Source: an uncultured Christensenella sp.
Lineage (GTDB): Bacteria > Bacillota > Clostridia > Christensenellales > UBA1242
Assembly: GCA_949282135.1 (NCBI GenBank)
Contig: CASDOR010000029.1
Coordinates: forward strand, 9,685 to 73,684
DNA length: 64,000 nt
Direction of reading: 5' to 3'
How positions within the stretch are numbered: position 1 is the stretch's first letter; each line of letters starts with the position of its first letter. The translations under genes were made by a program, and so were the position numbers. The notes under the pieces were generated by a model, which was not told the origin of the DNA, did not search any database, and worked only from the letters and a program-made list of their open reading frames with translations. Below are positions 1 through 27,900 of the stretch, piece by piece.

Positions 1-570
1 TTCAAGCACCTCTGTATTATCTTCTACCTCTACAACACAGTCCTTAAACCCACCTAAATCAATAGCATTTGCACCTGAAACATTAACATTACGTACAGAG
101 TAATTAGTGCCCTTTAGGTATCCTGCAATGCCACCAATAAAACTAGCTGAAGTTGAATAACTTGAAATGCTAGTTGATACACTCATGTTTCTTATTGTTG
201 TGTTATCACCAAAACCTACTAACGTTCCTACATAACTTTCAGAATTTAGTGACTCATTGGTAATTTTTATAAACGCATTATCAACATAACCATTGACAAT
301 ATAAGCATTTTTTGTGTATCCAAAAAGTCCAGCATATATATAACTAGAGTTATCTATTGTAAGTCCTTTTATTACATGTCCATTAAAGTTAAATACTCCG
401 CTAAATGGATAGACCGCAGAAACACCAATTGGTGTCCAATAGCTACCACTTAAGTCTAAGTCCTTAAGAAGTACAAATTCAGTATTACTTGTAAGTAAAT
501 TTCCACTATTTACATTGTTAGCAAGCCATACAAGTTCTTCTTCTGATGTAATAAGATAGATTGTATTAAC
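1..570 (-). repeat. Giant B repeat array 6 (canonical entry module; truncated by the window edge)
   Basis: The entry module is ITSEEELVWLANNVNSGNLLTSNTEFVLLKDLDLSGSYWTPIGVSAVYPFSGVFNFNGHVIKGLTI (~370-570). It is followed by AGLFGYT, GTLVGFG and GGIAGYL, and the array continues past nt 1. Confidence 0.75.
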
Positions 571-12500: not shown

Positions 12501-15500
12501 AATTATACTCGTTTATATCATTAATTTTATCTTGAGGAAGTATAATAATTACTCCCATTCCCTTGTAATGCCTACTTAACGTAAAATCTAATCTAAAATT
12601 GTTTTCATAGGTTTTTATCATGTCTAGTGTGTATAAACCACTATCTCCTTGAGGGACAATAAATTTATTTACTCCGTTTACATTAGACACTGCTATAAAC
12701 CTATATAGCAAATTATCATTAAAAATATTGTTTCCTGAAGTTTCTAAATCAATAGATGAAGAATCATCAATTCCTTGCCTAAAATTAATATCAAATCCAT
12801 CTAAAGAGCTAATACTACCTACTTCGTTTACATTTAAAATGTTTACCCTTACATTATTTTCATAACTAGCCCTATTAAACTCTCTAACATAGGCACTAAC
12901 TAAAATATCTTCATTTTGCCCATTATAAGACTCACTTAATCTAAACCAATAGTATCCGTCGTTTGCCAAATTAGATAATAGGGTGATTGGAGTATCAGTT
13001 CTACTATACTCTAAAACCAGAACTCCATTTTCTACTCTATACCTGTTTTCCAAAACGCCACTAATTTCAAGTTCAATCACGCCATAGTTATTAAAACTAA
13101 AAGTTGGTATTCTATTGCTATTTATGTTTGTGCTGACTTTTACCCCAAAAATACTAGGGTCATCCTTACTTAGTACCAACGCATCACTATCTAATACCTT
13201 ATCCTCAAAATAAATAGCACTAGAATCAAAAACTTGTGGTGTAGAAGTTTCAACTAAAATGTTTCTAATTGGAACATAAGAATTTAAAACAACATCCTTA
13301 GTTAAAATTGCCCCATCAAGATTGTGAATTTCAAATCTCAGAATGTAAGTTCTATCTGTTCCATTATCATTTAAAAAACTAAAACTTAAATTTCTAGTAT
13401 CAAAAGAGAAATATCCATCTTGATAAATATAGGAATTTAAACCTCCTAAACTTGGAACAAGTGTATCTGGATTTTCTCCACCTTCCTCGTCAATTATACC
13501 ATTATCGTTTTCATCAAAATAAACATAAGTTTGTAAATCAAATTGCAGTTGATCAAGAGGTCTTGTTGACATAATAAAGTTAAATGTCCTTTGGGCTTCA
13601 ACAACTGCAGACTTTGTACTAGTATTATCATTCGCTAGCACATGTTCCCCTACGCCCTTATCATAAGTTGTAACTGACATGGTCACATAAAACACACTAA
13701 TTGGACTAAAAACATTAACATTTATTTCATAAACTGTGGATAAATTTGGTGCAGTAATAGTAACTACACTAGATCCACTTGACACTGGCTCAATTAAAAA
13801 CTCGCCATTTCCATTGTTTATAATTCTAGCAACACTAACATCGCTTGATGAAATTGTAAGAAAATCAAACGCTGGGTAATCAGTTTTAAGATTTACGGTT
13901 ACTTGCCTACCAACATTCAGATCGATATTTATATTTTCGTTTCCAATAAAAGTTTTGCTATCCGTTTCACTTGCGGTAAAACTCACATCTTGCAACCCGG
14001 TATTAGAAACTATTTTGTCTCCATTTTCGTCAAGGACATAATTTCCTTCTTCATCAACTTCATATGTATAATTTATAAAGTCGTAACTAGTCACTTTACT
14101 TATGCCCTGCACTGTTTTAAACCAAATAACAGCAGTTGTAGCACCACTATCTGGTTTTTCTGCCCTAAAGACCATATAAAACTCTGAATTTACTTGAACA
14201 GTCTCATTAGGTTTAACATAAAATACTCCGCTTTTCTCAAAAGAAGTTTCAAAATCACTATCTGTAAGAGGTCTTGTCCCCTCATGTTCATATGTGATGG
14301 CAAAGTAGGAACTTGGAGTTAATATCCTATTTAAGCTTCCATCATAGAACTCAACAAAATACCTAGCATCTTCCGCTTTTACATTACTAGGTTCTACTAC
14401 GTCTATTTCAAATTTCTCACCAAGCAAATCAGCGGACGTATTAAGATATAAATTACTTGTATAAAAACTTCCACGCCAAGCCTCAATTATACTTTGCAAG
14501 TCTCCTTCCTCAAAAGTAAAATGAGGGATGGTATTTCCGTTAATTTCAAAGCTCTGAATTAAACTATAAACCGTAGTAGGAACACTAGTATTAATTGGAT
14601 AATTAATCACTTCATAGTCTGCATAATTACATGTAAATACTAGATTATAGATATCATTTTCGTAGCCCACTCCATCGGTCTTTTTATTTGATTGAAGCCT
14701 AATAAAAGCATATGTCACACTGGCATCTTCGTAACTATCTACTTGAAAACCAGCATCATCATAATAATAGTATTCACTATCATACCTAGGTTGAGTTGTA
14801 GGATATAAAAAAGGATATAAACTATCTTGAATAACTGCGAATTCTATTTTCTCTCCATTTGAATTAACTTTGAGTATTAAGTCTTTATAACTAAGACCAT
14901 TCCCCATGTTATAAACAAATTCGAGTAAAGAATCTTGACTTAATTTATTTTCTTCTATTACATCATCAATACTAGTACCAACATATACTTCAAAATTAGT
15001 TAAACTAGATAAAATTCTAATTGTTGAAAATGCAGTTAGATTTTCTCCTAGCGGACTATCATAAGTCGCTTTAACCGTAAGTGAAGAAAGATTTATATTC
15101 GTCGTCCTAGTAAGAGATAAGATCTTTGTATTTGGATTGTAGCTAAAGCCTTCCGTTCTAAGAGTGTCACTCGACATAGTTTCAAAATTGTCGGCACTCC
15201 CCGTGCCAAACTCAAGTGTAAAATCTTGGTTTGCAGGAATTCCTATAACCTCATTTGTAAAGTCAATACTAGTCCTTTCTTCCTTCGATAACGCAAGTGA
15301 ATCTCTTCTAAATGATATGCCATCTGACACTTTTACCACTTCAATATATATACTTGAAGTTATTCCAGATTCGGAATTTCTAGCAACTAAATATCCTTGC
15401 CCCTCGCTTGAAGCAACAACTGCCACACGAATACCATTTGAAATATGTTCAGTATCTGACTCATCAACTCTAACTGCATCAGAATTGTAAGCAAAACTGA

Positions 15501-15792
15501 CATCATAATTAAAATCACTTGGAGTGTTAGAGTAAACTATGTCTAGAGGTATTCTCGCACTATCATTTCCAATATAAATTACATAACTGCCATCAACTCT
15601 TGCATCAAATACTCCTCCAGCAGTTGTCACTCTATATGTCCCATCGTCTAGCAGCTCTACATTTTCACTTTCTGGCGAAAAAGAAAAAGATAGAGACATG
15701 CGCAGTCCCGCAAATCTATCATTACATCCAACAAAAATGCAAGCACAAGTTATAAAAAGTAGAACACATATTGTATTTAAAAACCTTTTCAT
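1..15792 (-). CDS. Giant surface lipoprotein B. The 5' end is complete and the 3' end runs off the window, giving at least 5,264 codons. It has Ig-like (Big_2-type) regions plus six GLUG-type repeat arrays.
   Basis: The ATG is at 15792-15790 (plus-strand 'cat'), preceded by AAGGATAGAGAT (SD-like AAGGA). My translation reads MKRFLNTICVLLFITCACIFVGCNDRFAGLR, with lipobox FVGC and the Cys codon at 15724-15726. 15792 = 3 x 5264, and the frame still reads ...FKDCVVEVEDNTEVLE at nt 1. The ORF is not in the supplied track, which also omits the edge-running vanW-like ORF. No other long minus-strand ORF is listed in 1-15.8 kb, as expected if one frame is open throughout. Big_2-like strings are RSSDSSVLMVSPSGDIRVVGLGNAIITISS (~10350-10446) and ISSSDVSVARIINNGNGEFLIEPVSSGSSVVTITA (~13760-13860). 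I did not verify every codon. Confidence 0.85.
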   Translation of the reverse strand, partial: MKRFLNTICVLLFITCACIFVGCNDRFAGLRMSLSFSFSPESENVELLDDGTYRVTTAGGVFDARVDGSYVIYIGNDSARIPLDIVYSNTPSDFNYDVSFAYNSDAVRVDESDTEHISNGIRVAVVASSEGQGYLVARNSESGITSSIYIEVVKVSDGISFRRDSLALSKEERTSIDFTNEVIGIPANQDFTLEFGTGSADNFETMSSDTLRTEGFSYNPNTKILSLTRTTNINLSSLTVKATYDSPLGENLTAFSTIRILSSLTNFEVYVGTSIDDVIEENKLSQDSLLEFVYNMGNGLSYKDLILKVNSNGEKIEFAVIQDSLYPFLYPTTQPRYDSEYYYYDDAGFQVDSYEDASVTYAFIRLQSNKKTDGVGYENDIYNLVFTCNYADYEVINYPINTSVPTTVYSLIQSFEINGNTIPHFTFEEGDLQSIIEAWRGSFYTSNLYLNTSADLLGEKFEIDVVEPSNVKAEDARYFVEFYDGSLNRILTPSSYFAITYEHEGTRPLTDSDFETSFEKSGVFYVKPNETVQVNSEFYMVFRAEKPDSGATTAVIWFKTVQGISKVTSYDFINYTYEVDEEGNYVLDENGDKIVSNTGLQDVSFTASETDSKTFIGNENINIDLNVGRQVTVNLKTDYPAFDFLTISSSDVSVARIINNGNGEFLIEPVSSGSSVVTITAPNLSTVYEINVNVFSPISVFYVTMSVTTYDKGVGEHVLANDNTSTKSAVVEAQRTFNFIMSTRPLDQLQFDLQTYVYFDENDNGIIDEEGGENPDTLVPSLGGLNSYIYQDGYFSFDTRNLSFSFLNDNGTDRTYILRFEIHNLDGAILTKDVVLNSYVPIRNILVETSTPQVFDSSAIYFEDKVLDSDALVLSKDDPSIFGVKVSTNINSNRIPTFSFNNYGVIELEISGVLENRYRVENGVLVLEYSRTDTPITLLSNLANDGYYWFRLSESYNGQNEDILVSAYVREFNRASYENNVRVNILNVNEVGSISSLDGFDINFRQGIDDSSSIDLETSGNNIFNDNLLYRFIAVSNVNGVNKFIVPQGDSGLYTLDMIKTYENNFRLDFTLSRHYKGMGVIIILPQDKINDINEYNLWFENPTYEEYDVTQENFIAGLYYVLQGNEYVPATEYAEDVVYYVRTVDFSNLLSIWDGALILNISISDGVDVPYHISTYEELLEIGASVDAVSKNYVLTRDIEIPTGESFNTIANYYLANVNSEEEFLKDTYYTLDESGNYVLSDSYIEDTIYYGYGFNGTLTGKYVLYDYKTGKEIVQYYGISNVRFVGNNTRDLVGIFSKLGVNGSITDLTIEYSYYQPTTSVTGAFGGVVGENRGTINNVNVRFTDYRITTTNNDSEDFVVSVGGIAGRNYGVIENNTIIDSVNMEGTINVVMGGENQNIYVGGFVGSNYGSVVGSYNTSDQASYTFNDIGFDSSLNIRVTGVSSNTRIGGVVGYNMGGIRNFAVQGEVIAPNSDNVGGLVGYNTSGSFEYSIERSFMSGKTQGRNYVGGAIGQALQGSFYNISAENYATFSNSSRTFVRGETYVGGLIGYASGANIEFSYVVSYFNSDSLSEDVANLDSSYDVVGNNNVGGFIGMAANSCIIANSASYLNVKGVGAVSNFISFDNNTTISNSFTIGCIYGEGSINTNPISTRTNSYSIIYNASTGESFVNGMKNGTIDSISVSGSPWQESGDEKTPPYLVFEGEALISTSQIVITVMVNDNAGDYVNYIKASNSALLLFYGLDEFNSYSSSIMSEVNTIKLNDIISLGVEIETNKTTRFDVRSSDSSVLMVSPSGDIRVVGLGNAIITISSKLNSNISAQLEVVVTEGITGFEVYANPSLTANINNSTLELVKSQTQTLYSESEYIRNVNGQNVGLMSYDNVGLRFIIEDDEKLEKLFDSLKLESIDRDLNDILRIAGMVWGIGDGYYYVDVDNSASISIEPLMAFSEKLNISYIPYIDFNNEVIRVLLDQIGVRTFSVTASYGATDIIIENNILSTVEINQLEYFSFTVTVKTDFDGEDIDNNVDLISDDNFGFNEGSNKVFNYDNLGNVVSVSRTYTVWYKDKETALNSEKRYKLSFWPKTNTSENKIDLTIIVHGQDGVSDISARIYSDIKTDFPHKPSDSNTIYNGRTALFAFEVYPYFANYSKLRISYTSSANYSFTLSQLRYNNSGTGDKFTVYTNSGAIFDENGALIVQKTSGQDSASISSNGIYSYSRMYFFGVLIPSNVPDRTAYTMTIDVLDSRDNVILSKSIEFTTLARSDLNLSFNEEYLGEDTIYYLPANTRQELNISTTNDYETISFDVTSSDYELTESMKEMFTPFLEGDRYYVNIMDYENNLFTTDLIGKTINITATVDGGETTDPCTVSFVISLFTVTDISASGVSQGYMILQNSVTTPLKVTVSASFDESVLGTTNNWYNEWYLNFGTDETNSLYQQIVNAGYEVQENFISYISILEEQITKADYDSDAEGEKVSGVWLYVDSNGTLSVLRNGRMYNNNAFGVEDYRGYIAVYGYETDRNSSLRLNVRLSYAHFDDTTSRVKDSSGIANVRDYNFEHSLYQGSFTFIDEFMLAFVDRVGINNPVPVSSASEFLSLANEEGGDFRLVNDIELTNYTPFDINVNSFDGNNYKIYITSFAEVTEESTVANLGLFNEIGQDTMIYNTAVYYTNRVDLSIETGRLVPRAYPLTYTAKTNIPVNFGGIAVTNNGIITNCTTSGSVTLNISNTNMDVILNGGLVATNSEKAFITNSKVVDFMLTCYGRTGGFVGINSGKIVASYFDNSSISNLSTANVGGFVYQNDGVIYECFSQGARNSTDNDIRNTGTGITSDGGNVGGFVYQNNNLISDCYSNILISTSSIMAGFVYLDSASSEISKSYSISYKRVGDNETTAFPFLGPSTEFTPLRVVVNGILNNCYYLTTGGTWANSNFYLPNSNNPSETPANRRAFPLETDDFATHDSFINYDLSLVYNTDRYADNRTEFNYIDGYTWVIVGGKPLLVSTLTNTISQQDYLGKEKNYESEDIVYFDLASLGELHVEEQRVGIGSSEIITNYYQVDSNGNYTEEDLIFSTLRNNNTNTLTYNFMARNGLNSLSIICNIVTNEEGDESIEFDSAEYGDGTILDIRTNVGDVYYDTDENFRANDTIIIERNEETNEILRITYRELQSASYYYSASVTGVSDIVGSRTNPKIIYDYESFSYWLTETTTNKTNNSFFRLVSDIDLNNNFVSTSRSTFKGILQGNYMTIDNLSISYFNTSVIDENLNSTSFGLFASIETDRDSSLDTVISNLNINVNQVLSNAHRFVGALAGEIRADERVNSHKVFLANINIGSTIGASAYIMGRNAVGGLAGIATGYVIIKDITTSVSVNASYDAPSSIINSTLYIDRDDTYISRVSYAGGVVGIFDVKKVVDTATLRNYNANNVTVSNDNSYVGNIVGSAFGLVGENSIVNYTNAYLSHSETSFIKATSYGGGLVGENRGTIISSSSNYLEDSTNNDGIGESSYSEFDLFFSGLGGEVNSIGGLVGLNNGGLITNSISNVNVRNELAVIAGGAVGRMLEGALVNVVATGSVLSNKIMGGFIGSMNNISLLVEEGNYDINTLINFDISKYTDFYGSFAESENKNVIISSCVSANNWLVEDYSYYSSKLLTESVLSGFIGVISYYDENLNRDIFEDMAYIRPSYYANTLYTTVNGSNPARYLQSTYISVGLDEVEVNEDSPNILVDSNNEQVVFPYSTSEFYYESMPAKVTYAVRSENNISGSMGGEHDVYADVFYRIESSTPSDLINNDSLYTLVDYNKDGSWNTPYEQRSYQWYQARFGYIYYKDESGQYILVNGSSDFESLEKIDENTYRDFYYIASPILNSFTFTEEYSSSEDDIFIYGNNSAQSTRVNGYTFESIDDLKAQNYISVNGLRIPIDLSDETNSRVDEVYADEEHEIFVSGEYEYSNFRLPLQNGGEVTNIKFTVSSYSSANNIRAYIDNVELTFEYNNIGYENLDGENVFVSLNSYRGDVNTITNFELVISSKKVIYSSYKNGYWEMDENFLLDNLDEVTRYPVNLELAEKYVWSDFRSNSVSTEIYTAEDLAAFAYIVNSGLDSYEDREVTLHNDIDLSGKYWVPIGSEEHPFKGTFNGNGHSIKYVSVNENSIKDGDGLTLPKYAGLFGMTDGATIKDLSILGGEVSGEYAGGLVARAENTEIYNITNRNNSLGVTYSGGIVGLMNAGSIYNTYNYARVESTNSSTRVSSNVYIGGIVGNAKNVVFSYLDVDSSGQLLSNTNYGEIYTFNTLNNYISNRLINLYAGGIIGHAENMVDFEGAFNEGDIGITTNSNKIYVGGIVGYVTSPRTLDSISFTSNYVQSLKNNGNIDITNSNTFSSVDLTEDSVYEDYATCDIGGVFGYADLSASLISNEGDIAVNAISSSEAKMSIGGLIGRLDIIRRGNESDQSVVGGVRISSSYNIGYVEVYSTNGSTFGIGGLIGVSDLTYYITNNSDEGNEKTKDKVHIYDSYNAGEILSSNNCETFLGGVLGYAYGTNEVSNRVLIERCLNVGSLTIYNIMRARNALGAIAGVDNFIFTTNPNANTNVTVDDIDSYVPESLYNFYLRGSAYSQGINYTAFTEYEASTSNYTPVEDISTFALSRISSTLKSENNYELEIVIDDTSYVIDVWDFENVWQRQYDTWYPTLRNNLATSFWFDRVTEVQSTGVSYSVSSEKELAYIAKQINSGEIESEGIIINLTSPLDLSNKFWTPIGSEEYPFKGTFNGNMYEIKNLTVDGSFMASNEYGGLFGVVQNATIRNVGLSSPVIKNVSTAGGVVAKASNSLLTMVYTENEESEDSIIEGMYTAGGIVGELTSSAVLSESNRKGLYFAYNNTRVGVNSENTGFSSIGGLVGVLESSYIGNAYNSENGIITVRDDSIGDGASVVGSTDISSRLLNVFNLSSIMMTPGNNTIGIRVKTMYYITTNETGEVVLKNSDNPTFDNLSNNDDSNEYLGDPANIWTKEYSLNSVELSEYPTLRGLGREWKNVESETLTSFSISSDFSEKNSILDYVDSITSTKLEDGSSVIKEIDKTLVSFSSESFSGVSVNTIYLITSEEELVWLANNVNSGNLLTSNTEFVLLKDLDLSGSYWTPIGVSAVYPFSGVFNFNGHVIKGLTIDNSSYIYAGLFGYTKNAYIVNGYVDNAFIKITNESLNSESYVGTLVGFGDNTTIRNMSVSTSISSYSTSASFIGGIAGYLKGTNYSVRNVNVSGANAIDLGGFKDCVVEVEDNTEVLE
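1010..1720 (-). repeat. Giant B repeat array 5 (canonical entry module)
   Basis: The entry module is SSEKELAYIAKQINSGEIESEGIIINLTSPLDLSNKFWTPIGSEEYPFKGTFNGNMYEIKNLTV (~1510-1720). It is followed by GGLFGVV, GGVVAKA, GGIVGEL and GGLVGVL. Confidence 0.75.
2090..3600 (-). repeat. Giant B repeat array 4 (canonical entry module)
   Basis: The entry module is IYTAEDLAAFAYIVNSGLDSYEDREVTLHNDIDLSGKYWVPIGSEEHPFKGTFNGNGHSIKYVSV; the YWVPIGSEEHPFKGTF portion was read directly at 3421-3480. It is followed by AGLFGMT, GGLVARA, GGIVGLM, GGIVGNA, GGIIGHA, GGIVGYV, GGVFGYA, GGLIGRL, GGLIGVS, GGVLGYA and GAIAGVD. Confidence 0.8.
5040..6250 (-). repeat. Giant B repeat array 3
   Basis: The entry module is FRLVSDIDLNNNFVSTSRSTFKGILQGNYMTIDNLSI...FGLFASI. 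It is followed by GALAGEI, GGLAGIA, GGVVGIF, GGLVGEN, GGLVGLNNG, GGAVGRM and GGFIGSM (~5060). Confidence 0.7.
7150..8050 (-). repeat. Giant B repeat array 2 (degenerate)
   Basis: The entry module is VSSASEFLSLANEEGGDFRLVNDIELTNYTPFDINVNSFDGNNYKIYITSF...LGLFNEI. It is followed by FGGIAVTNNGIITNC, GGLVATN, GGFVGIN, GGFVYQNDG, GGFVYQNNN and AGFVYLD. Confidence 0.65.
10900..12310 (-). repeat. Giant B repeat array 1
   Basis: The entry module is VPYHISTYEELLEIGASVDAVSKNYVLTRDIEI...GFNGTLTG. It is followed by GAFGGVVGENRGTINNVNV (11761-11820), GGIAGRN, GGFVGSN, GGVVGYN, GGLVGYN, GGAIGQA, GGLIGYA and GGFIGMA (~10990). Confidence 0.7.
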
Positions 15793-15964: not shown

Positions 15965-18900
15965 TCAAACCTGCAACACTATGTTAGATAGTTGCCCTCC
16001 AGTTTCAATTGGTTCTTCAAGTATTACCATCTCCAAATTATTTTTAAGAATTAGATACATATCTGAACTATTAATTATAAAATCTTCATATGTATCTTGA
16101 TTTCCTGTTTTTGTGAGTAGATGCGTATAATCATAACTGCTCTTATTAATTCCAGACTCTATAATACTTTCTGTCCCCATGCTGTCAAGATTGCTAGAAT
16201 AAGTACTGCTGATAGTGATGTCACTTAAATCATCTAAACTAGTTTGATAAATTACTTCATCTAAATTAGGTACGTGAGGAGGCTGATTATATGTTTTATC
16301 ACAATCGCATTGTCCGTAAATCTTATCAAGAATTTGCAGATTTTGATACTCCTGAGTTATATACCCATCCTTCTTTGTTGCATCTCTAGTTTCACCACTT
16401 TCCCCTGTTGTATATCCCACATCTTGAAGTGCATCAAAGGTAAAGTTTTTAAAATGATATGTCGTACTAAATTCTACGTAGTAAGAGTTAAACACATAAT
16501 CATTATGACTTGGATAAGCAACAGCTTCATTTTCAAATCCGCTTCGTGAAGTTGTTTCTGTTTTCATAAGTAAATTTTCATTATAAACACCCTCTTCAGA
16601 TGTAAGTAACTCGGCTGGACTAATAACTTTTTCAAGACCTAAAATTGCCAATTGTGCATAACTATTTATTTCTTTACCAGCAAATAAGTCAGGATTATTA
16701 GTTCTTGTTAGCCAATATTCTACACGTGGTAACACCATGGCTAGGTCCCACCCACCTGTTTCTAGATTAGGTGTATAAGTATACGTAGTAATATCAACAC
16801 GGAAACCTACAATATATGCTTCTTGATTATCCAATAAATGTTCATTTCTATCCGCCCAATTAATTGTGGCATCGTCAAAAGGTTCACCCTCTATCTTAGT
16901 TGGATGTTGTCCTACAACAGTACTCTCGCCTTCATCACTTCCTTGGTTAACAATAGTAATGTAATCAGTTTCACCCTCAGATGTTTGAGCTCCACCTTCA
17001 AGATAACCCACAATTTGTCCACGTTTATCGGAAACATAAGAAGTAAATGCAAGGTCATTCTCATCACTTCCTTCCTCAACTATATAGGAATTATTCCTAT
17101 CATAATCAACGCCAGATTCTGAAAAATCATAACCATAGAAATAGTAACCAGAAATAGTGCCATTATTTATACCTCTAACGTAAAGTTCCTTTGTCACATC
17201 TTCTGAACCTTCTACAGCTGTTGTGATATGACCTTTTCCAACAATACCACCAACTGAACCTTTGTGATTTGAGTTGAAGTCACTAAATCGAGTTTCATTA
17301 CCCGAAGAGACTATATCAAGTGAATTTAAATTTCCTTGAGCCCACAAACTTATGTTGCTTGCAGCAGGATTTGTTAGACTATAGAATGATAGATCCCCAT
17401 TATTGATAGCTCCATCTATAACTGCTGAAATTGCCTCACCAGCAATACCACCTACGTTTACATTTGGGGTAAAGCCTATAATATCCGCATCATTTACACA
17501 GTCAATAATGTTGGTAAATGTTGCTGTACCTACTATTCCACCTTGACTTGCAACTAGACTTCCGTCCCCACTTGCTCCATTAAACAAGTCAAACTCGTTT
17601 GTACAATTATAAATGTTACCATAGTTGCTTGCGCCAACTATACCACCTACAGAAATGTTACTTCCGCCAACTAATGTTATAGCAGTTCCAGATTGCTGAG
17701 GCATTGTCACGTAGAATACAGACGAATCATTAAGATAACCCACAATTCCACCAATATAATCTCCTTCAACTGAACAACTAAGTGTTACTCTAAGCCTTGC
17801 ATCCTCATCTTCTCCGCCTAGCTTTGCATTATTTTCGAGTGCACCTACAATTCCGCCAACATATTTTCCACTAATCGTACCTTGTGAAGTAAAGTCTAGA
17901 TTTGTCCTAAGTTCTATTCCATCTACAAGCCCAATAAGTCCACCTGCATAGTTTTCACTCTCAATGTTAACAGTTACGTCATTGTTTGCAGTTAATTTTT
18001 CTACTAGAATATTTGCTGAAATATTTGTCGAGTCCTCCTCAGCACTTATTATTCCAATAATTCCACCTGCAGCAGCATTACCTTTTATAGTAACATTATT
18101 TGGAATATAGCTATTATCGACTTCTCCAGAAACATATCTACCTATTAATCCGCCCGCATATTCCGAGCTAACATTTGAAACTTGTAAATTTGATATATCT
18201 GGGAAGGACTCTTCACTATTAAATTCACCAATTACACCACCGCCGTACATACCGCCATCAACTTCAAGCCCCGTAAATGATTTTCTAAAACTTCCCTTGT
18301 TAAATAGTCCTATAAGTCCACCAAGAGCAATTCCTTTTGTATCGCCGTTTTCCTCATCAACACCAATTCCTATAGCGGTAACTTTAAAATTTTCACCTAT
18401 AATATCATTTTCAACAAAACCGCCACCTGAAATAACACCACCATTCATTTGTCCAACTATACCACCACCATAGAAGCCATCTTCATTTACAGTTACATTC
18501 CTCGCTAGTCCACTTCTGATTTCACCATCCTCAAGAAGCCCTACAAGCCCACCTACAATTCTACCACTTACACTTGGCGCTTCTATTGTGTATGAGTCTT
18601 CTCCCTCAGCAAGTCCTAGTGTTCCGTCAGCCAATATACCCACAAGTCCGCCAATGTAACCTGTTACAATTTCTTCACTTTCTTCCCCAGAGCCACTTTC
18701 TTCTCCAGAGCCATTTTCTTCTCCAGGAATTTCGGCGCTAGTAATTGTTACATTGTCTGGGTTTATATCTGCCCTCTCTATATTTCCGTAAGAAATTCCA
18801 GCGATTGAACCTGCAGCATCAATACCACTTATATTGACAGAGTATAATTTTGTACTAATATCAAAACCATTAGCCATTCCAAGCATTGTGTCCTTAAATA

Positions 18901-21900
18901 CTCCTATGCTACTAGTTAGAATTTGCCCACCTTTTCCAATCCTACCAGCGATTGCACCTGCATAGTAAGCATCTTCTGTATCAGACACAGCATATGAATA
19001 CTCAACTGTACCTTTATCAAGATTTCCAACAATACCTCCTGCATAGTTTCCACCTGACATGCTTGCAAGCATAACTGCATTTCTAATTTTTACACCTTCT
19101 TCATATTTTGGATCGGTGTTTTCCTCTGAAATTGTTGCTAGACCAACTATTCCACCAATAGAACCTGTATGTTGTGTGTAATCTCCATTGTCTAATGTAA
19201 TAAGTTGTTCGCCATATAAAATCACAGCCTCGGCATTATCTCCAAACGTACCCTCTTTTGTCGTAACTTTTGCAATAGTAACATTAGATATTTCTCCTCC
19301 ATCCATAAAGCCTACTACTCCACCAGCAACTGAGTTTGCATCTCCTACTACTTTAATACCAGAAATAACATTTCTAATTGTTCCATTTTTAAGATACCCT
19401 ACAATACCTCCAGTATATGACCCTGCAACTCCTCTTACAGTAAATGTTGACTCTCCATCCTCGTCATTAACTCCTAATCTTGTGCTTTGGCTTAATGTTT
19501 GTACAGAATTTATATTTTGCATGTCTATATCAGTAAGTCCTCTTGATAAACCAAGTACGTCAACAACAGGATATGTTTCATCTCCACTTCCTATACTTTT
19601 ACCAGTTGAAAAATCTACAAGCGAACCCTCATCAACTCGTCCAAAAATTCCACCAGTATAAAGACCATTTGATATTGTTCCGTTAACGCTTACATGAATG
19701 TTACCTGTGTAGTTCTGCATTATTTGTCCTGGCTTGTCATAATAACCTACTGCTCCCCCTACAAACATAGCCTTTTGAGACCCACTATCACTTAATCCAA
19801 AATTTACACTGGCATTTAATGTCGTTTGAAGGAACACATTCTCTGTACCTACTAGCTTAGTACTACCTATTTCACCGTTTCTCATAATGCCAACAATACC
19901 ACCAGCATAACCGCCATAAATATAGTCTTCTAAGCTAGGAGCAATTGGCTTTCCATTACCATCAGATTTTATTGCATATCTTGCAGCAGCGATTCTAACA
20001 ACACTTCTATTTATAAGCGAATTACCGCCAGTCTTACCAACTGAAACAGTCCCAGAAATATGACCATCCTGCATAAAGCCAGTTACACCACCTGCGTAAC
20101 CACCATAAATTTGTAACTCGCTTCCTTTGAATATTGAATCAACAATTCCTTCGATGCTTGACAATGCAGTTCCCAGTCCTGGAGCAACCTTTGCCATGTA
20201 AATAGCACTTCCTGCATCCATATACCCTATCAAGCCACCAGCATATTTACCACTATACACAGAACCGCCATTTACAACCTGCAAAATTGACCAATCGGTA
20301 AAATTCGGAGTATTGAATAATGTATCGCTTTGCGCAACGGAGTTATTCCACCTAATATAAAGGCCAATTTCATGAGGGCTAAGGAAACTCTCAATTTCTG
20401 CAGTATTAATAGTTGCTTCACGAGCATAACCAATAATTCCACCTGCAAAAATTTCACCATTTATAAGTCCTGCATTCTGAACTTGTCCATATAAAAGATT
20501 TTGATTTAACATCTCATTTACCATGTCAGCTATAGAATCAAATTTAAAATTCGGATTAAATGAAACAACTTGTACAGTATTACTATCTGCATATCCTACA
20601 ATACCACCTGCAGTCCTACCAATGACTGGCATAAAGTTTGCTGATGCTGTTACTATTAATCCCGCTTCAGCCATACCAATAATTCCGCCAGCTATACCAG
20701 AAGAAGCAACAGACGAAGTAAATAGTGCCCCTACGTAAGTAGGCAATTCGATACCATAACTAAATGTCATGCTAAGAGTTAAATCCATAGTGCCTGTCTT
20801 ATATCCAATAATACCACCTGAAGAACCTCGACCTGCTGGAACATCTTCAAGCTGAACATCAACATTATCAGTAGATAAATCATTATCTACAGTTGCAAAT
20901 CTCTTATCAAAATAATCATCCCCTATGTTACAAATGTTTGAATTTGCAGTTAAACCTCCGAATGTAGATGTACCACCACTTGTATCAACTGACCATTTAT
21001 TATTCCAAGTATATCTGTTAACAACAATATTCAAAAAATAGTCCACAAATGAAACATCGTCTAAATCATCTAGTCCAAAATCAAGACTTCCCTCAAGACC
21101 AAGGTCAAAAATACCAAGCAAGTTAGTAGATGCTCCAATTTCAATAAGTGGTAGTTCTTGTCCATCTACTGTAACACCAGTACTAAATTCAAAGCCAAAA
21201 AGACCTAAGTTTTCAGAAACAGTTAGGAGAAGATCATCAAACTCGTTATCATCAATTTCCCCATCTGATTCTGCCTCTTCTATTCTACTTGCAATAGAAC
21301 GAGAACTAGAAATTACTTCTGAAGCAGAGAATATCATTGCTATATTTGAATAAACTCTACCAAAGTTAAATGCCCCAGTAAATTCACTATATTGTGCTTT
21401 ATCAAAGAAGCCTATTATACCACCAGAGATGAAACCGACAACCATACCTGTTGGACCATTTACCATAATGCCAGCACCATTTAGAGGGTTACCCTCGTTA
21501 TCTAAACCTCCAAAAATAGTATTAAATGCCTCTTCAAAACCAGACATATTTCCGCCTGAATTATCTAAGTATTTTTCTACACCTTCTATTATGCTTGCAA
21601 CACTTAAGTGTCTACCAAATGTATTAAGCCTTGCATTATTGCCAGAAATTACTCCAATAATTCCACCAGCGATACCGTAAAGTGACATAACTATGTTATT
21701 ATTAAAAATAATTGAATTTGCTTGGACAGTACCTCCTGCCATAACACCAACGATACCACCAGAAACACGTACACCAAGCAGCACTCCAGGTAAGAAGAAT
21801 TCTGAAGAATCACTTGCTGTTTTACAATCATAGATATACCCACTATTCATATAGCCAACTATACCACCTATAACATTAGGTATACCAAGTATAGATTGTG

Positions 21901-24900
21901 TAAAGTCTTTGAAGAAACTTGCTACTTCTTCACCAATATCCTTACCAGATGGAGCAGAATCTCCAAATAAGGTTTCAAAGAGTGCAATCAAAGATGCATT
22001 ATATTGACAGTCCTCTATTGTAGCCCCTTCAAGGAAACCTACAATACCACCAGCAAATGAACGAACTAAATAACCGAGTAAACTAGCATTTGAGGTACAA
22101 TTTTTTATATAAACGTTTCCTCTACTCTTATTAGAAACGAGACCAACTATACCTCCACTAAATGTAGCAAGATTTGAACCAACTTTTCCTGTCGAAGTAG
22201 CATTTTCAATTACAATGTGATCAATGTTTCTACTAGTGTTTTCTACCATAGCATAACCTACAATACCACCAGCAATTGAATGAGTTAACCCTGCTGCAAT
22301 ATTTGCTATAAGTGTTGGATCTAATCCATATTGAGAACCAACCAGATCACTAAATATATCTTTTATTGTATTAAATGAACTTTCACCCACTACTCTTGCA
22401 GAACCGCTAACATCTACCTTTATCGCTCCAATGCCAGAAATTATTCCACTACTTGTAACATTAGTTATACGAACTGATGTACTATCACTAATACCTTTAT
22501 TCAAAATTTCGCCAACAATTCCGCCCGCTGAGTAGTTTGAAGTTATGTTTGCACTATTTGAAATAGAACTTCCTTCACCAGTCTCTGTCTTTCCATTTAG
22601 TTCACCATATATCATTCTACCAACAATACCACCGGCAACACTATATCCATCGTTTGCAAATCCTATGTAGCCAACATACTCAAAGAAGTGGTCTAAGTTA
22701 ACACCTCCATATTGGCCACTGCCTTCCCATCCTCCAATTAATTCCTTAAATTGTGGACTTAATAAATCGCTCCAAAGTTTGCCAGAATCCCACATATCTG
22801 CAAGATAGTCACCAACTTCAGCGAAGACCTCATCAAATCCATTTTCATCAAAGTTTTCATATGAATATGCTACAGGGTCGCCAATAAGGGCAGTAATATT
22901 AGAGCCCTCTTTTGCTGTACAATTAGTTATTGTACCGCCTCTCATTCTACCAATTATTCCACCAACAACACCTTCTTGTGCTGTCTTAAGTAAGAGCACC
23001 CCTGTAATATGACAATTATCAATTATTAAACTGTCCTTACTATATACATCTCCGACAATTCCACCAACATAAATTGTGTACAATCCACCTAAACTATGTG
23101 GATAGAGGTTTATTGCTGCTGTGTACTCACCTCCACCAAAGTTAGAGTTTCTAATTATTCCTGACCCCATAACACCAGCAATACCACCCAAATAAATTTC
23201 TGTTATATAAATAGTTTCGGATGTGTCTCCTCTATCCTCATAACTTGGGACATCTGAACCAGTACTAAGGTTTTTAACAATTGTTTGCATTTGGGACCCA
23301 TCTTCAGTTCCTGCTTCCCAATTCAAGTATCCTATTCTAACACCTCTAGCTTCACTAAAATCATTATGAATACTATAAGTACAATCTTCAATATTTCCAC
23401 CATCTAACATACCAGCAATACCACCAGCAGAATACATAGAGTAAATAGAAATATCTCTTGATGATCCTTGCCCCATAACAATTCCCTTAATTCTTGATTG
23501 ACCGCCTCCTATGTAACCTGCAATACCACCAACATACGAGAAAGTTTGCACTCTTTGAGAAGCCTTTAAACTTGTCGCAACTGTCATTTTCTGAATATCA
23601 ATCTCTCCCGCAACATCAGAAGATACAATACTATCTATTGCATCACTAGTAATCGTACCTCCATTCATAATTCCGACAATACCACCAGTATAACTTATTT
23701 CATTTAATCTCTTGCTTAAATCAATTTTAGTACCATCAGATTCTGAAACTTCGTTATAAACCATAACAGTAAGCCCATTTATGACTATGTCCGTTATGAC
23801 CCCTCCGTTCATAATTCCGACAAGCCCACCCGCAAATGTTGTCTTTTTGCTATCTCGATCAGAATAGATATCATTATTTGGAATGTAATCACTTTCGGTT
23901 ATAGGATCTGAATTACCCACTAAGACTTTCATATTTATTGATGTGAGAACTTCTTCTAAAATCTCATATTGAGGTTCTAATTGAGAATTTTCACCATCAT
24001 CTTTACAGAACAATTTATAATCTTCTTTGCTTAGTAATTGAAGTATATTTCCATTATAGACATAACTTGCACCGCCTCGACCCTCATCTGTTACTGTTAT
24101 ATTACTTATCGTTCCACCGCCGACATATCCAGCAATGAGCCCAGTTTTTGAGTAATTGCCCCTATTAAATGTAATATTTTTAACTACTACCTCTTGCGCT
24201 TCTTTGTTATTTATTATGAGGTTTTCGGTGTTAGGAATTGCCCTGACTAGTCCATATGTTGCGAACATATTGGAAACATCCTTATTATCTCCATCTAGAT
24301 TTCCATAAAATATTGCATTTATCTTATCCCAATTTTCAGACCAATATGTACCTTTTTGGTATTTAATAAGATTTATATCTCTAGTGAAAATGTAATATCT
24401 ATATACAGGAGTTGCTTCACGGCAATTTTCAACAACTAACATATCAAGAAGTCCGCCATGTTTAATACTGTATGGCATATCTTCAAAACCACCTGCTTCC
24501 GTAGCTGTTTTAAGACGAGGAGGATTTTCTCCCCTAACGTTGTTAATGTCTCTAAGACCACTACCAGTATAAAGCATATCAAAATACTTTTTCGTATTTG
24601 CAGCCTCGTCTTCGCCGACAAAGATATTTTGCATATCCTTAGTCAAATATCCAAAGTTAAACCAAGTTGTATCAATAATTAAACTATCATTTTGACTTAC
24701 TCTAGCATAATTATTAGTAAGTTCAAATTGATTTGAAACTCCAATCCATGAAGTTTGAAGTATATCAAGCATTGTTACACTTTCACCTATATTTGGATCA
24801 CTTATATTATCTAAACTTAAATCACCAGAATAAGTTGTCGTCCAAACATAAATACCATCACGTGAAATGAAAGAAACATTATCGGCAGTAGTACTTAGTA

Positions 24901-27900
24901 TGTCATCAATCCTCTTACCTTCATTACTTCCAAGATAAGCAACATAATCATAATATGTTCTATACAAATTTTGCTTAGTTTCTGCTTCACCTGCCTCATG
25001 TCCAACAACTGGGTAAACTTTACTTAAACTCCCCTCATCTTCTGGAGCATCAATATCTGCCATAGTATATGAGTTTGAGATAACTCCATATGTACTTCTA
25101 AATGCAAGCCCTGTATAAACACTATTTTCTGATGAACCAGAAGCATTAATTGAACCTGTATAATAAGAATCGTAAATATTTCCAATATAACTATCATTTT
25201 GTCCGTTATAAAGCACAAGCCCTGCTGCACCATCACTTGTTATGTTTGCCAAGCTAAATACTCTATTTAATACTCCATAGTTGTTAGAAACCACTGAGCT
25301 TACAGATTGTGGCGTCCTAACACTATTTAAAATATCTCCACTCACACCACATGAGAAAACAAAGCCATAGTTAACTCTTGATATAGCTGAGAAATTGTTA
25401 TCAACACGAGTATCTCCATCCACCGTAACTAGCACTCCAACAACTGCCGACCCCTCAGTAATCGTATCAAATATAGGCAATGTTACTCCATTTGAAACAA
25501 CACTTATGCTATGTCCTTCAGCATTGAGCACCCAATTTGTATAGTTAGTAGAATAAATAGATGCACTTAAATTTAAATCATCACTTAAAATGTAATATGT
25601 GGAATTTGTCAAACTTCCGCCGGAGCTATATTCAATAGGATTTAACTTACTACCTGACGTAAATGAATCATTTTCAAGATAAGTACTATATAAAGATGAA
25701 TAAGAATCTTCAACCTCAAGCACAGTCTCAAGTCTTAAGATCTCACCTCCGTCATTGTAAGTAAACATATTAAATATTTTTGTAAACTGTGTACCAAGTT
25801 CACGTTGTGAAATGGCAGAGAAACTATCTACTCCTGTGCTTACAATTGTAATTCCGCCTATGTTCCCTCCAGAGACACTTGTTCTATTACTATTTGATAC
25901 AAGAGAAATGTTTTCATTAAAGTAGACTTTTGCCATATCTCCATTATATGTAATTGATGTAATGTCACCACCTATAACACTGTGAATCCTTGCGTCAAGT
26001 TTTTGTGCTATAGCATAGTCGCGAATAGTAGAAGCAACTAGAACAAGTTCATCAGCTCTTCCGCTTACTGTAAAGGAGCTAAGTATCTGACCTACAAGTC
26101 CACCGACATAATAACTTCCATTTTCTATGTAGAAATATGAATTACTACTACCTGTTCCTCGTTTTAAAGTTATGTCAGATAAAATTATTACATTTACAAC
26201 AGAAAGAACCTCAACTGTACCAACCGCACCACCAACAAACATTGAACTCTCTTGATTAACTATGATATCTACTGTTGAAATTGCTTGCTCTAAAGACAAA
26301 CTCACACCACTTGCAAGTATCCCACCTACATATAAAATATCATTTTCATAATAAGTTAGCCCATCTTTTTCAATAAGATTCTTAACAACTTCTAATTTTT
26401 CCGCATCACTTACAACATTAATAAGTCTTAAATCTGAAGTTGACTGAGCAATTATACCTCCAAGATACAACCTATTATATACTGTTGCATCAACTTTAAT
26501 GCTTATATTTGAATATATGTTTTCAATTGTAGCAGTAGAATTTTCACCAAAAACACCACCGACACTTGGATTTGAACTTTCATCATTTAAGTGTACAAGT
26601 ATTCCTCCGTTAGAAACTCCACCTACAATAGAATTCGAGTTGTCTGGAGTCACGCCAGATTGCCTAATATAAATATCATTTGTTACAGCCTGATTTTTAG
26701 CAATAACACCAGCTATTGATTGTCTACCTTTGATATATGTCTCAATTGACAAATCATAAACATAAACACTTTCAATAGAACCTACTGAAGTAGAACTTCC
26801 AACACTCTGATATCTTCCATGATTACCAGAAACACCTCCAACATATGCACCACTTGCTCCGCTTGAAGAATTGCTTACGTATATATATGGATCTTGTCTT
26901 TCTCCTTGAGGTTCTCCACCTACAAGAATGCTACCACCATCTATGTAAATGTTCTCCATTTGTCCCTGATAATAACCTGCAATGAGACCAAGATATAGTG
27001 AACTTATATCTCTTACCACAGTTGTCATGCCCGTAAACTCTGATTGAAGATTGATATAAGATTGAGAAGATGCATTTCTAATATATCCCTTACCAAATCC
27101 AACTACAGAACCCACATAAACATTACTATTACTACCTGAATATAAAAGTGAGATATTTACATTTGCACCACTATTCTCAATTGTCGCTGTACTATCGCCT
27201 GTAGAAGCTACTAGCCCACCAAAAGTCGAAGCATTTGTCTTTATTTCACCTTCATTTTTAACCTCAACAGTGTATCCTGTGCCAGTAGACTCAACAAAGC
27301 GACTGCCATTCGTTAAATCAAGGGTAAATGTGAACGACCCAGAAATTTCTATACCATCAATTACATACTCTGCTAACTTTAGGTAAGAAACATTACTTAC
27401 TTTTTCTACAACGTTTGAATCATTGTAACTTAATCCTTGTGAAACATTAAATGTTATGCCTTCCATACTTGGGCTATATGTTCTACTTGAAGAATACCTA
27501 GAAACATTACTTGTTAAACTAGAATAAACATTGACATTAGTCATTGTCATATTCTCAGCATTACCTACAAGAACAGATGCTCTTGTATCTCCAACTAAAC
27601 TATTAGAGAACCTTACATCGTAATTTGAAATTACAAAGTTAAGATTAGAAATTGAGCCCCCACTTACATTTTCAAACAATGCATAAGTAGAATTTTCCAC
27701 ATTTGTATTATTAAAGTTAAGATTAAAGAGTATTGGGTACCTTGTATAAGTACCAGTACCATCAGTATACGTGACTGCATTACCAATTAATCTACCACTA
27801 AAAGTTGAAGTAATTGGTGAAAGATCTGTAATCCCACTAAAGTCAATGTCATTCATAACTAAATAAGTCATCTCAGCATTATTTCTTGTTGACAACTCTT

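What the first reader, a model, noticed from the sequence alone, without database searches (positions are those of the whole stretch)
17200..24430. Single continuous ~7-kb (~2,400-aa) GLUG-type super-array whose copies are conserved as protein but diverged as DNA
From the entry module at ~24.4 kb to the last GGIVGKG at ~17.24 kb I counted about 45 GG[ILVA]xG motifs by hand. They have a recurring partner motif, I-x-[ND]-[CS], and most of the protein's Cys residues sit in that position.

There is no intervening spacer domain, unlike the other, 0.7-2-kb arrays.

I compared neighbouring copies directly: GGLVGIMNGG at ~23790-23830 and GGIVGIMNGG at ~23660-23700. Only a 16-nt core (ttcataattccgacaa) is identical and the flanks differ. 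The repeats are therefore old, not recent amplifications or assembly collapses.

If these rungs stack like canonical right-handed beta-helices (4.8 A rise per rung), this array alone would form a rod tens of nm long.
Basis: partly seen in the sequence, partly recalled or inferred. Interest (0 to 1): 0.6.

Follow-up and report, generated by a model that had tools for sequence, protein, structure and literature searches.

The report
Very long GLUG beta-helix shaft
The 7.2-kb stretch encodes the outer third of a 7,747-residue lipid-anchored surface protein of a tiny-genome, spore-former-type bacterium: about 45 ancient, individually conserved "GLUG" rungs predicted to stack into a long beta-helix shaft carrying a fast-changing tip. 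It is an unusually long version of a known fold, not a new kind of system.

Summary
Window 17200-24430 (minus strand) is aa 4927-7337 of one 7,747-aa lipobox ORF (15965-39208). It holds 43 strict GG[ILVA]xG motifs, against 2.7 expected by chance.

There are no DNA repeats longer than 21 nt exact or 30 nt at about 90%. Twelve species of the genus keep every rung in the same alignment column at 27-51% identity, and rungs match their positional orthologues rather than their neighbours. The array is therefore old and shows no concerted evolution.

AlphaFold2 on both 1,200-aa halves gives pTM 0.70-0.71. The same strand-GG-turn-strand pattern appears at 42 of 43 motifs. Foldseek returns almost only right-handed beta-helices, best 3n6z and the M26 IgA1-protease beta-helix, but no E-value is significant.

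- Paralogous rungs are only about 21% identical as protein.
- The I-x-[ND]-[CS] partner occurs in about a third of rungs.
- The array is not uninterrupted. A conserved, family-less 142-233-aa module splits it into about 17 and about 27 rungs, and there are further helical inserts and an acidic linker.

Most likely function: a rigid distal shaft, roughly 20-30 nm, presenting a strain-hypervariable tip. This is inferred, not shown. It is a new variant of a known kind, of moderate interest.

The parts
15965..39208 (-). Giant A: one 7,747-aa ORF that contains the finding. The only hydrophobic segment of transmembrane strength is the signal peptide. The protein is strongly acidic (975 D+E against 422 K+R).
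39143..39208 (-). Lipoprotein signal peptide with lipobox, MKKVLVFLSILMLSFSGVLFA|C (aa 1-22). The Cys is conserved in all seven database orthologues.
   Evidence: The genome encodes Lgt and LspA.
24149..24430 (-). Entry or cap module of the array (aa 4927-5020), with invariant YWS..D, F.G.LDG and GL.R motifs. It is the most conserved part of the region (mean identity 0.52).
21374..24145 (-). N-terminal sub-array (aa 5022-5945): about 17 GLUG rungs. It is interrupted by low-confidence, predicted helical inserts at aa 5055-5121, 5445-5519, 5597-5640, 5741-5771 and 5868-5911.
   Evidence: Pfam GLUG scores 31.3 bits in aa 4927-5467.
20840..21373 (-). Conserved non-GLUG insert module (aa 5946-6123), 142-233 aa long in 12 species. 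Motifs: [IF]N[LF]G.V, G..IDG....L..I, Y..GIVVN.Y.W. No Pfam or PDB relative. AF2 pLDDT is below 50.
17198..20839 (-). C-terminal sub-array (aa 6124-7337): about 27 GLUG rungs. This is the most regular part, with period 27-35 aa near the end.
   Evidence: Pfam GLUG scores 44.2 bits with 6 stretches in aa 6968-7369.
18671..18727 (-). Acidic (GSGEES)n linker inside the C-terminal sub-array (aa 6828-6846), encoded by the only tandem DNA repeat (18 nt x 2.8). AF2 pLDDT is below 50. Orthologues carry different acidic or Pro-rich linkers at the same place.
15968..17197 (-). Non-repetitive C-terminal tip (aa 7338-7747). It has no Pfam family and is the least conserved part between species (identity 0.05-0.27).
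16454..16831 (-). Hypervariable cassette in the tip (aa 7460-7585). It is 39% identical between two strains whose arrays are 97-98% identical. The same pattern holds in four other close pairs.
1..15792 (-). Giant B: a second lipobox GLUG giant (open frame 5,642 aa in the genome) directly downstream. The tandem arrangement is kept in 10 of 11 relatives.

Best explanation
The region encodes the distal shaft of a lipid-anchored cell-surface fibre.

Shown:
- It is part of one intact 7,747-aa lipobox ORF. The genome is 1.25 Mb and 97.5% complete, and it also encodes Lgt and LspA.
- It consists of about 44 GLUG-type units whose GGxxG corners are near-invariant.
- Number, order and spacing of the units are kept one-to-one in 12 species of the genus.

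Predicted:
- Each unit forms one rung of a right-handed parallel beta-helix of the 3n6z / M26-IgA1-protease N-terminal-domain type. Gly-Gly makes the same beta-arc in every rung. The hydrophobic +2/+3, G+9, I+11 and [ND][CS]+13/14 positions would fill the core; that last point is inference.
- The rungs stack into a stiff acidic rod, about 20-30 nm by arithmetic. One conserved ~180-aa module and several helical excursions emerge between the 'I-x-N-C' strand and the next rung.

Inferred function:
- The shaft is a spacer or scaffold of fixed length. It holds the ~410-aa C-terminal tip, whose ~125-aa cassette is hypervariable between strains, far outside the wall.
- The purpose would be attachment to a partner cell, host surface or particle. 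This fits a reduced-genome, probably partner-dependent gut-type Clostridia-like organism.
For: Gene and anchor.

Motif excess: 43 observed against 2.7 expected.

GLUG membership at both ends of the array and in the genome-wide scan.

Ancient, non-homogenised rungs:
- No DNA repeats.
- All 43 columns conserved in 8 proteins and 12 species.
- Positional-orthologue test 44/48 and 41/48. Orthologue flank score is 54.5 against 21.4 for the best paralogue in the nearest species.
- Open frames of 7,673-8,262 aa without stops in at least 11 relatives.
- dN 0.47 against saturated dS, so dN/dS is at most about 0.17-0.41.

Fold:
- AF2 pTM 0.71 and 0.70, pLDDT 72.7 and 61.2.
- Identical strand-GG-turn-strand at 42/43 motifs.
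- Foldseek top hits are 3n6z (probability 1.00, TM 0.44 normalised by target length, all 339 residues aligned) and the G. haemolysans / S. pneumoniae IgA1-protease structures. The rest are nearly all beta-helix adhesins, lyases and tailspikes.

Scaffold rather than binding face:
- Invariant residues are almost all Gly.
- Conservation is flat along the rod, 0.26-0.40.

Variable tip: the cassette at aa 7460-7585 is 27-55% identical in five close pairs whose arrays are 72-98% identical.
Against: - No experimental or expression evidence exists.
- No Foldseek hit reaches E <= 0.001, and PDB sequence and profile searches find nothing.
- The AF2 alignments have only 12 rows, and AF2 tends to build solenoids from repeats.
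- 29% of residues (707 of 2,399) have pLDDT below 50.
- Continuity across aa 5946-6123 and across the acidic linker was not tested.
- Pfam GLUG fails in the middle 1,500 aa and on the long queries.
- The adhesin or spacer role is inferred from architecture alone. No ligand-binding domain was identified in the tip.
Confidence: 0.65

Rival explanations
1. It is a segmented chain rather than one rod. Two or three shorter beta-helices (about 17, 14 and 13 rungs) would be joined by a folded ~180-aa module and a flexible acidic linker that act as hinges. The 'super-array' would then be several modules that simply lack Ig-type spacers.
For: - pLDDT is below 50 over aa 5958-6132 and 6828-6846.
- The insert is conserved in all 12 species and has non-GLUG motifs.
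- The linker is acidic or Pro-rich and variable in orthologues.
- The junction of my two models coincides with the insert, so nothing tests continuity there.
Against: - pTM is 0.71 for the half that contains the acidic linker. This argues that the rungs on both sides of it are placed in one rigid frame.
- The helical inserts in the other half do not lower pTM, which is 0.70.
- In solved long beta-helices such as H. influenzae IgA1 protease, domains emerge from and return to an uninterrupted helix (PMC7695701).
Confidence: 0.3
2. It is an envelope layer or coat component rather than an adhesin. The two tandem giants would form a fixed-thickness fibrillar layer, a capsule or S-layer substitute, with the shaft setting the layer thickness.
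For: - The tandem giant A and giant B lipoproteins are conserved in 10 of 11 relatives.
- Together they take about 3.2% of a 1.25-Mb genome.
- Rung number is strictly conserved.
- The surface is highly acidic.
Against: - A strain-hypervariable distal cassette is more typical of a ligand- or receptor-facing tip than of a lattice former.
- No SLH, CWB2 or other lattice or wall-binding domain was found by Pfam.
Confidence: 0.2
3. It is an enzymatic beta-helix: a polysaccharide lyase, hydrolase or epimerase, like tailspikes or PL6/GH28 enzymes, with the inserts forming the substrate groove.
For: - Foldseek lists PL6 alginate lyases, fucoidan lyase, GH110, polygalacturonases and phage depolymerases among the weak hits.
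- The inserts all emerge from the same inter-strand position (sequence reading).
Against: - These hits have probability 0.09 or less and reflect the shared fold only.
- There is no Pfam lyase, hydrolase or Beta_helix family hit.
- Residues invariant across 12 species are almost exclusively Gly, with no conserved Asp/Glu/Lys/Arg/His cluster outside the cap.
Confidence: 0.07
4. It is an assembly artefact or a recent repeat expansion.
For: None beyond the repetitive protein motif.
Against: - The longest exact DNA repeat is 21 nt.
- The same architecture is found in at least 12 independent assemblies, with open frames of 7.7-8.3 k aa.
Confidence: 0.01

Closest known systems
GLUG-motif beta-helix domains (Pfam PF07581). 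Solved examples: Bacteroides ovatus BACOVA_03286 (PDB 3n6z) and the N-terminal beta-helix of Gram-positive M26 IgA1 metalloproteases (6xja, 6xjb, 7jgj, 7uvk; PMC7695701, PMC9637739).
   Same: - The repeat consensus is the same..YAGGIVGY..GGtI.nC....
- Pfam GLUG passes its threshold at both ends of the array.
- A cap module with F.G.LDG precedes the rungs.
- These structures are the best Foldseek matches.
   Different: - Known examples have roughly 250-340 residues. PMC7695701 calls the pneumococcal helix 'relatively small'. Here about 2,300 residues and about 44 or more rungs lie in one stretch, with conserved helical inserts and a ~180-aa inserted module.
- There is no M26 protease domain.
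- The middle of the array is too diverged for the Pfam model.
- No detectable sequence similarity to the solved chains.
Long beta-helical fibre adhesins of diderm bacteria: TpsA / FHA-type (EtpA, 8vbb), Fap2 (9qe7), Ag43 (7koh).
   Same: The working principle is the same: hundreds to thousands of residues stacked into a single right-handed beta-helix rod tens of nm long that projects an adhesive region. They appear among the weak Foldseek hits.
   Different: - The repeat families are unrelated.
- Those proteins are exported by type V secretion with a TPS domain or beta-barrel. Here an N-terminal lipobox anchors the protein in a monoderm-type organism, and no such domains are found.
'Extender plus tip' giant adhesins, such as RTX/BIg-repeat adhesins and the giant staphylococcal surface proteins (from my own knowledge, not tested here).
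   Same: A long, sequence-tolerant, length-conserved extender carries a distal variable or ligand-binding region. The proteins are giants with an acidic surface.
   Different: The extender here is a beta-solenoid rather than tandem Ig-like or helical-bundle domains. The anchor is a lipid rather than LPXTG or type I secretion retention.
Other giant GLUG lipoproteins noted in this scan in small-genome gut Clostridia. These are AI notes and unpublished.
   Same: They share a lipobox, Ig-like modules plus GLUG beta-helix modules, tandem giant pairs and small genomes.
   Different: Those notes describe cassettes of about 250-350-aa arrays separated by other domains. Here the last cassette is expanded about 7-fold into a ~2,300-aa array. 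In a phmmer scan of 1.84 billion representatives, only two orthologues match it end to end.

Membership tests
GLUG motif family (Pfam PF07581) | Match to the Pfam GLUG HMM above the gathering score of 20.5 bits | tested here: met
   31.3 bits for aa 4927-5467 and 44.2 bits (6 stretches) for aa 6968-7369. The genome scan also passes at three places in giant A. The middle pieces fail: aa 5468-5967 scores 11.2 bits, and aa 5968-6967 has no hit. The 4,000-aa queries also fail.
GLUG motif family (Pfam PF07581) | Right-handed parallel beta-helix fold as in 3n6z and the IgA1-protease N-terminal domain | tested here: inconclusive
   AF2 pTM is 0.70-0.71, and the same strand-turn-strand appears at 42/43 motifs. 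Foldseek's best hit is 3n6z: E 0.05, probability 1.00, TM 0.44 normalised by target length. For the other half, 7uvk gives E 0.21 and probability 0.92. No hit reaches E <= 0.001. Coordinates could not be inspected.
GLUG motif family (Pfam PF07581) | Cap module with F-x-G-x-(L/F)-D-G-x-G before the first rung. This feature is recalled from known GLUG proteins and is not a formal Pfam criterion. | tested here: met
   aa 4966-4975 read FYGNLDGDNK. F28, G30, L32, D33 and G34 of alignment A2 are invariant in 12 species.
M26 IgA1 metalloproteases | Peptidase_M26 catalytic domain (HExxH zinc site) C-terminal to the beta-helix | tested here: not met
   Pfam scans of the whole protein return only Big_2 and GLUG. 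The C-terminal 378 aa have no family even at E <= 10.
Type V secreted beta-helix adhesins (TpsA / autotransporters) | TPS secretion domain or C-terminal beta-barrel translocator, in a diderm host | tested here: not met
   No such Pfam domains are found. The N-terminus is a lipobox signal peptide. The neighbourhood holds M23, mfd and pth genes, and earlier scan notes call neighbours SpoIIQ-like and spoIIID, which would point to a monoderm endospore lineage; I did not test the sporulation assignments.
Pectate-lyase-superfamily enzymes and tailspike depolymerases | Family-specific catalytic residues or a Pfam lyase, hydrolase or Beta_helix match | tested here: not met
   No Pfam match. Invariant columns are almost all Gly. 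Foldseek probabilities are 0.09 or less.
Bacterial lipoproteins | Signal peptide ending in a lipobox Cys, with Lgt and LspA present in the genome | tested here: met
   The lipobox is LFA|C at aa 19-22, conserved in seven orthologues. Lgt scores 207 bits and LspA 102 bits in the window's own genome. Actual lipidation is not testable here.

The most novel reading that the evidence does not exclude
The shaft may be a molecular ruler. Its rung number has been held constant since the genus diverged: all 43 motif columns are kept at 27-51% identity. The tip it carries is swapped or diversified between strains. In a 1.25-Mb, probably partner-dependent bacterium, the two tandem giants take 3.2% of the genome. 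They would be the organ that docks the cell at a fixed distance onto a specific partner cell or host structure. The conserved family-less ~180-aa module and the row of helical inserts would form a second, undescribed functional face on the rod.
Probability: 0.2. Interest if true: 0.7.

Novelty: new variant of a known kind. Interest (0 to 1): 0.4.

Why it matters
GLUG is a widespread surface-protein motif, common in gut bacteria and archaea, whose function the literature still calls unknown (PMC9723798). The solved examples are short helices of roughly 250-340 residues.

This locus shows that the same unit can be extended to about 2,300 residues. It also shows the unit kept rung-for-rung over deep divergence without any DNA-level homogenisation. 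That makes it a clean natural example of a long repeat protein evolving with no concerted evolution.

The locus sits in a lineage with extreme genome reduction that nevertheless spends about 3% of its DNA on two such proteins. If the shaft-plus-variable-tip reading holds, it points to the attachment apparatus of uncultured, reduced-genome gut Clostridia and gives a concrete target for finding their partners. The candidate region is the tip cassette at aa 7460-7585.

As it stands this is a predicted structural scaffold built from a known fold, with no tested function.

Tried and rejected
- Pfam and NCBIfam on 4,000-aa halves gave nothing useful for the region. I had to cut it into 400-540-aa pieces (one search failed on frame).
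- PDB sequence searches found only spurious hits or none: phmmer with aa 6717-7369 and aa 4927-5373, and profiles A2 and A3.
- Pfam on the 180-aa insert in 12 species found nothing consistent.
- The look-up of encoding contigs refuses proteins over 5,000 aa. I therefore could not get the DNA of the 97%-identical strain for a proper dN/dS.
- The search for related loci in genome contigs found no relative, so the organism could not be named.
- The search of protein representatives with profile A1 failed because the profile exceeded 1,200 positions. I re-ran it with the single sequence.
- Literature searches for 'GLUG' with 'beta-helix' and for 'PF07581' returned nothing. 'GLUG motif' returned two passing mentions.

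Analysis with limited value:
- NG86 dN/dS against the nearest species is limited by saturated dS (pS 0.62-0.73), so it gives only an upper bound.

Ideas rejected:
- Recent amplification or assembly collapse.
- An IgA1-protease identity, because there is no M26 domain.
- A transmembrane or double-anchored topology, because there is no hydrophobic segment beyond the signal peptide.
- The 157-aa plus-strand ORF at 19188-19661 as a gene. It lies antisense inside the conserved giant ORF. I did not test it further.

Full report
**What is at the coordinates**

The window's minus strand carries two giant ORFs, 15965-39208 (7,747 aa) and 1-15792 (open at the window edge). The finding, 17200-24430, is aa 4927-7337 of the first ORF.

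The protein starts with a lipoprotein signal peptide (…GVLFA|C). It has no other hydrophobic segment of transmembrane strength and is strongly acidic, with 975 D+E against 422 K+R. The window's own genome is 1.25 Mb in 29 contigs and 97.5% complete. It encodes Lgt and LspA. The upstream genes match Peptidase_M23, Mfd and peptidyl-tRNA hydrolase families. Earlier scan notes call two neighbours SpoIIQ-like and spoIIID; if right, that would be the neighbourhood of an endospore-lineage Firmicute. I did not test those sporulation assignments and could not name the organism.

**Checking the observation**

- The region holds 43 strict GG[ILVA]xG motifs, against 2.7 +/- 1.6 (maximum 9) in 2,000 shuffles.
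- A rung HMM has the consensus SGSVSGGYAGGIVGYMDGGTISDCTIVGNT. It finds 44 copies here, 17 in the other 5,300 aa of the protein, and 23 in the part of giant B inside the window. The other arrays are 250-350 aa long, so this one is about 7-fold longer.
- Motif spacing runs from 27 to 202 aa. Twenty-three of 42 gaps are 42 aa or less (median 35); the rest contain insertions.
- At DNA level the longest exact repeat in the 7.2 kb is 21 nt. The best self-alignments are 26-30 nt at 90-96%. The only tandem repeat is the 18-nt x 2.8 unit that encodes GSGEES.
- The partner motif I-x-[ND]-[CS] follows only about a third of the rungs.
- Nine of the protein's 20 Cys, and 8 of the 12 in the region, occupy the partner position. 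Several of these Cys are invariant across species.
- Paralogous rungs are not really 'conserved as protein'. Thirty-residue units average 21% identity (maximum 53%). Only G0, G1 and G4 are 96-99% conserved across 43 rungs x 12 species. Positions +2/+3 (I/V) reach 57-59% and G+9 reaches 47%.

**Age and mode of evolution**

A database search found seven lipobox giants of 7,689-7,993 aa that cover the region end to end at 29-97% identity. A whole-genome search found open frames of 7,673-8,262 aa in same-genus genomes: 16 of 27 genomes had a hit, and 0 of 9 other genera of the family did.

I fetched the C-terminal ~10 kb from 11 species. Each has 38-44 strict motifs. In two independent MAFFT alignments, all 43 motif columns are conserved. 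In the 12-species alignment, 39 of the 43 columns are kept in all 12.

An aligner might simply lock onto GGxxG, so I masked the core and scored the flanks only. Each rung's best match in the two nearest species is its positional orthologue in 44/48 and 41/48 cases. The mean flank score against the nearest species is 54.5, against 21.4 for the best paralogue. In species at 27-35% identity it is still 14-25/48, where chance would give about 1/48.

The array therefore predates the genus. It has not gained or lost rungs and shows no concerted evolution. dS against the nearest species is saturated (pS 0.62-0.73). dN is 0.47-0.54, so dN/dS is at most about 0.17-0.41.

**Fold**

I predicted the whole region as two 1,200-aa halves, each with a 12-species alignment.
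- aa 6140-7338: pLDDT 72.7, pTM 0.71, 45% strand, 4% helix.
- aa 4940-6139: pLDDT 61.2, pTM 0.70, 36% strand, 17% helix.

At 42 of 43 motifs the DSSP string is identical: the strand ends on the first Gly, two turn residues follow, and the next strand starts. The one exception lies in the disordered last nine residues of a model. A pTM near 0.7 over 1,200 residues argues for one rigid frame rather than beads on a string.

Foldseek against the PDB returned almost only right-handed beta-helices.
- For the first half the top hit is 3n6z, the B. ovatus GLUG protein: E 0.05, probability 1.00, TM 0.44 normalised by target length, all 339 residues aligned.
- For the second half the top hit is the G. 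haemolysans IgA1 protease: E 0.21, probability 0.92.
- These are followed by S. pneumoniae IgA1 protease, Fap2, EtpA, Ag43, PfbA, PL6 lyases and tailspikes.

None of these hits is statistically significant, and PDB sequence and profile searches found nothing. I could not see the coordinates, so handedness and length are not measured. Forty-four or more rungs x 4.8 A gives roughly 21-29 nm by arithmetic.

Pfam GLUG passes its threshold in the first 540 aa (31.3 bits) and the last 400 aa (44.2 bits). It fails in the middle.

The array is not uninterrupted.
- A 178-aa stretch (aa 5946-6123, nt 20840-21373) has no GLUG rungs. It is present in all 12 species at 142-233 aa, with its own weak motifs ([IF]N[LF]G.V, G..IDG, Y..GIVVN.Y.W). 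It is as conserved as the rungs, has no Pfam or PDB relative, and is predicted with pLDDT below 50. It splits the array into about 17 and about 27 rungs. It coincides with the junction of my two models, so continuity across it is untested.
- Four further low-confidence, predicted helical inserts lie at aa 5445-5519, 5597-5640, 5741-5771 and 5868-5911. All sit between the I-x-N-C strand and the next rung. There is also a 67-aa insert just after the cap.
- The acidic GSGEES linker (aa 6828-6846) interrupts the second half.
- In all, 29% of the region has pLDDT below 50.

**Function (inferred)**

Residues invariant across species are almost all Gly. Conservation is flat along the shaft (0.26-0.40), highest in the cap (0.52) and lowest in the C-terminal 410 aa (0.05-0.27).

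Between the window's protein and a 97%-identical strain, 85 of the 277 differences fall in aa 7400-7600. The cassette at aa 7460-7585 is 39% identical, while the arrays are 97-98% identical. Four other close pairs show the same contrast: 27-55% in the cassette against 72-94% in the arrays. In two of those pairs the array also evolves faster than the N-terminal 4,900 aa or the cap.

With the N-terminus lipid-anchored, this fits a stiff distal shaft that presents a diversifying tip. That is the logic of fibre adhesins.

The tandem second giant is conserved in 10 of 11 relatives. Together the two genes take about 3.2% of the genome. A published survey describes a reduced-genome, sporulation-gene-bearing gut Clostridia family (UBA1242, Christensenellales) as probably partner-dependent and rich in hypothetical membrane-bound proteins (PMC12306168). 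Whether this genome belongs to that family is not established here.

**Comparison and novelty**

The unit and the fold are known: Pfam PF07581, PDB 3n6z, and the 'relatively small' IgA1-protease beta-helix of PMC7695701. Rods tens of nm long made of one beta-helix are known from type V adhesins.

What differs here:
- The GLUG helix is extended about 7-fold.
- It sits in a lipoprotein of a monoderm-type organism.
- Its rungs are conserved one by one, and it carries conserved inserts.

In a phmmer pass over 1.84 billion representative proteins, only two orthologues match the 1,199-aa half end to end. The other 31 hits cover 500 aa or less. The literature search found no description of such proteins. 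GLUG is mentioned only as a motif 'of unknown function' that may serve adhesion.

Earlier notes of this scan report many similar giant GLUG lipoproteins in small-genome gut Clostridia. Within this scan the class is therefore recurrent, and this finding is its long-array extreme. I file it as a new variant of a known kind, with moderate interest.

Noticed in passing
window 16454-16831 (minus strand; aa 7460-7585 of giant A): A hypervariable cassette lies in the C-terminal tip. It is 39% identical between two strains that are 97-98% identical over the arrays, and 27-55% identical in four other close species pairs whose arrays are 72-94% identical. Conserved blocks flank it (WADRNE... and ...EFSTTY.FKNFTFDALQDVGYTTG...). 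This looks like cassette swapping or diversifying selection of a binding region.
   Followed up: partly
window 20840-21373 (minus strand; aa 5946-6123): A conserved ~180-aa non-GLUG module sits inside the array (142-233 aa in 12 species). Its motifs are [IF]N[LF]G.V, G..IDG....L..I and Y..GIVVN.Y.W. It has no Pfam or PDB relative and AF2 pLDDT is below 50.
   Followed up: partly
window 21476-22876 (minus strand; aa 5445-5519, 5597-5640, 5741-5771, 5868-5911): Four amphipathic-looking, F/L/D/E-rich inserts are predicted helical. Each is placed between the I-x-N-C strand of one rung and the Y-x-GG of the next. They would all leave the helix on the same edge and could form a ridge along one face. 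Their length is conserved in orthologues but their sequence is variable.
   Followed up: no
window 1-15792 and loci L016-L026 downstream of giant A: A second lipobox giant (open frame 5,642 aa in the genome) follows giant A after 57-458 nt in 10 of 11 relatives (172 nt in this window). The tandem pair is a conserved unit and takes about 3.2% of a 1.25-Mb genome.
   Followed up: partly
G000:C9:85972-87567 (own genome, outside the window): A third, much smaller GLUG protein (open frame 1,061 aa) is the only other GLUG-bearing gene in this genome.
   Followed up: no
P0004 vs P0005 and L021 vs L022 (orthologue pairs): In these pairs the super-array (72-81% identity) evolves faster than the proximal parts. 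In P0004/P0005 the N-terminal 4,900 aa are 92% identical and the cap 93%. In L021/L022 the cap is 86% identical. The distal third of the protein is under weaker constraint, or under diversifying pressure, compared with the proximal two thirds.
   Followed up: no
window 19188-19661 (+ strand): A 157-aa ORF lies antisense inside the array. It is most likely a by-product of the repeated CCNACNATNCCNCC pattern and not a gene.
   Followed up: no
window 18671-18727 (minus strand; aa 6828-6846): The (GSGEES)n linker is the only DNA-level tandem repeat in the giant. The 97%-identical strain has the same copy number with one Ser-to-Thr change. More distant orthologues carry unrelated acidic or Pro-rich linkers at the same position.
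   Followed up: partly
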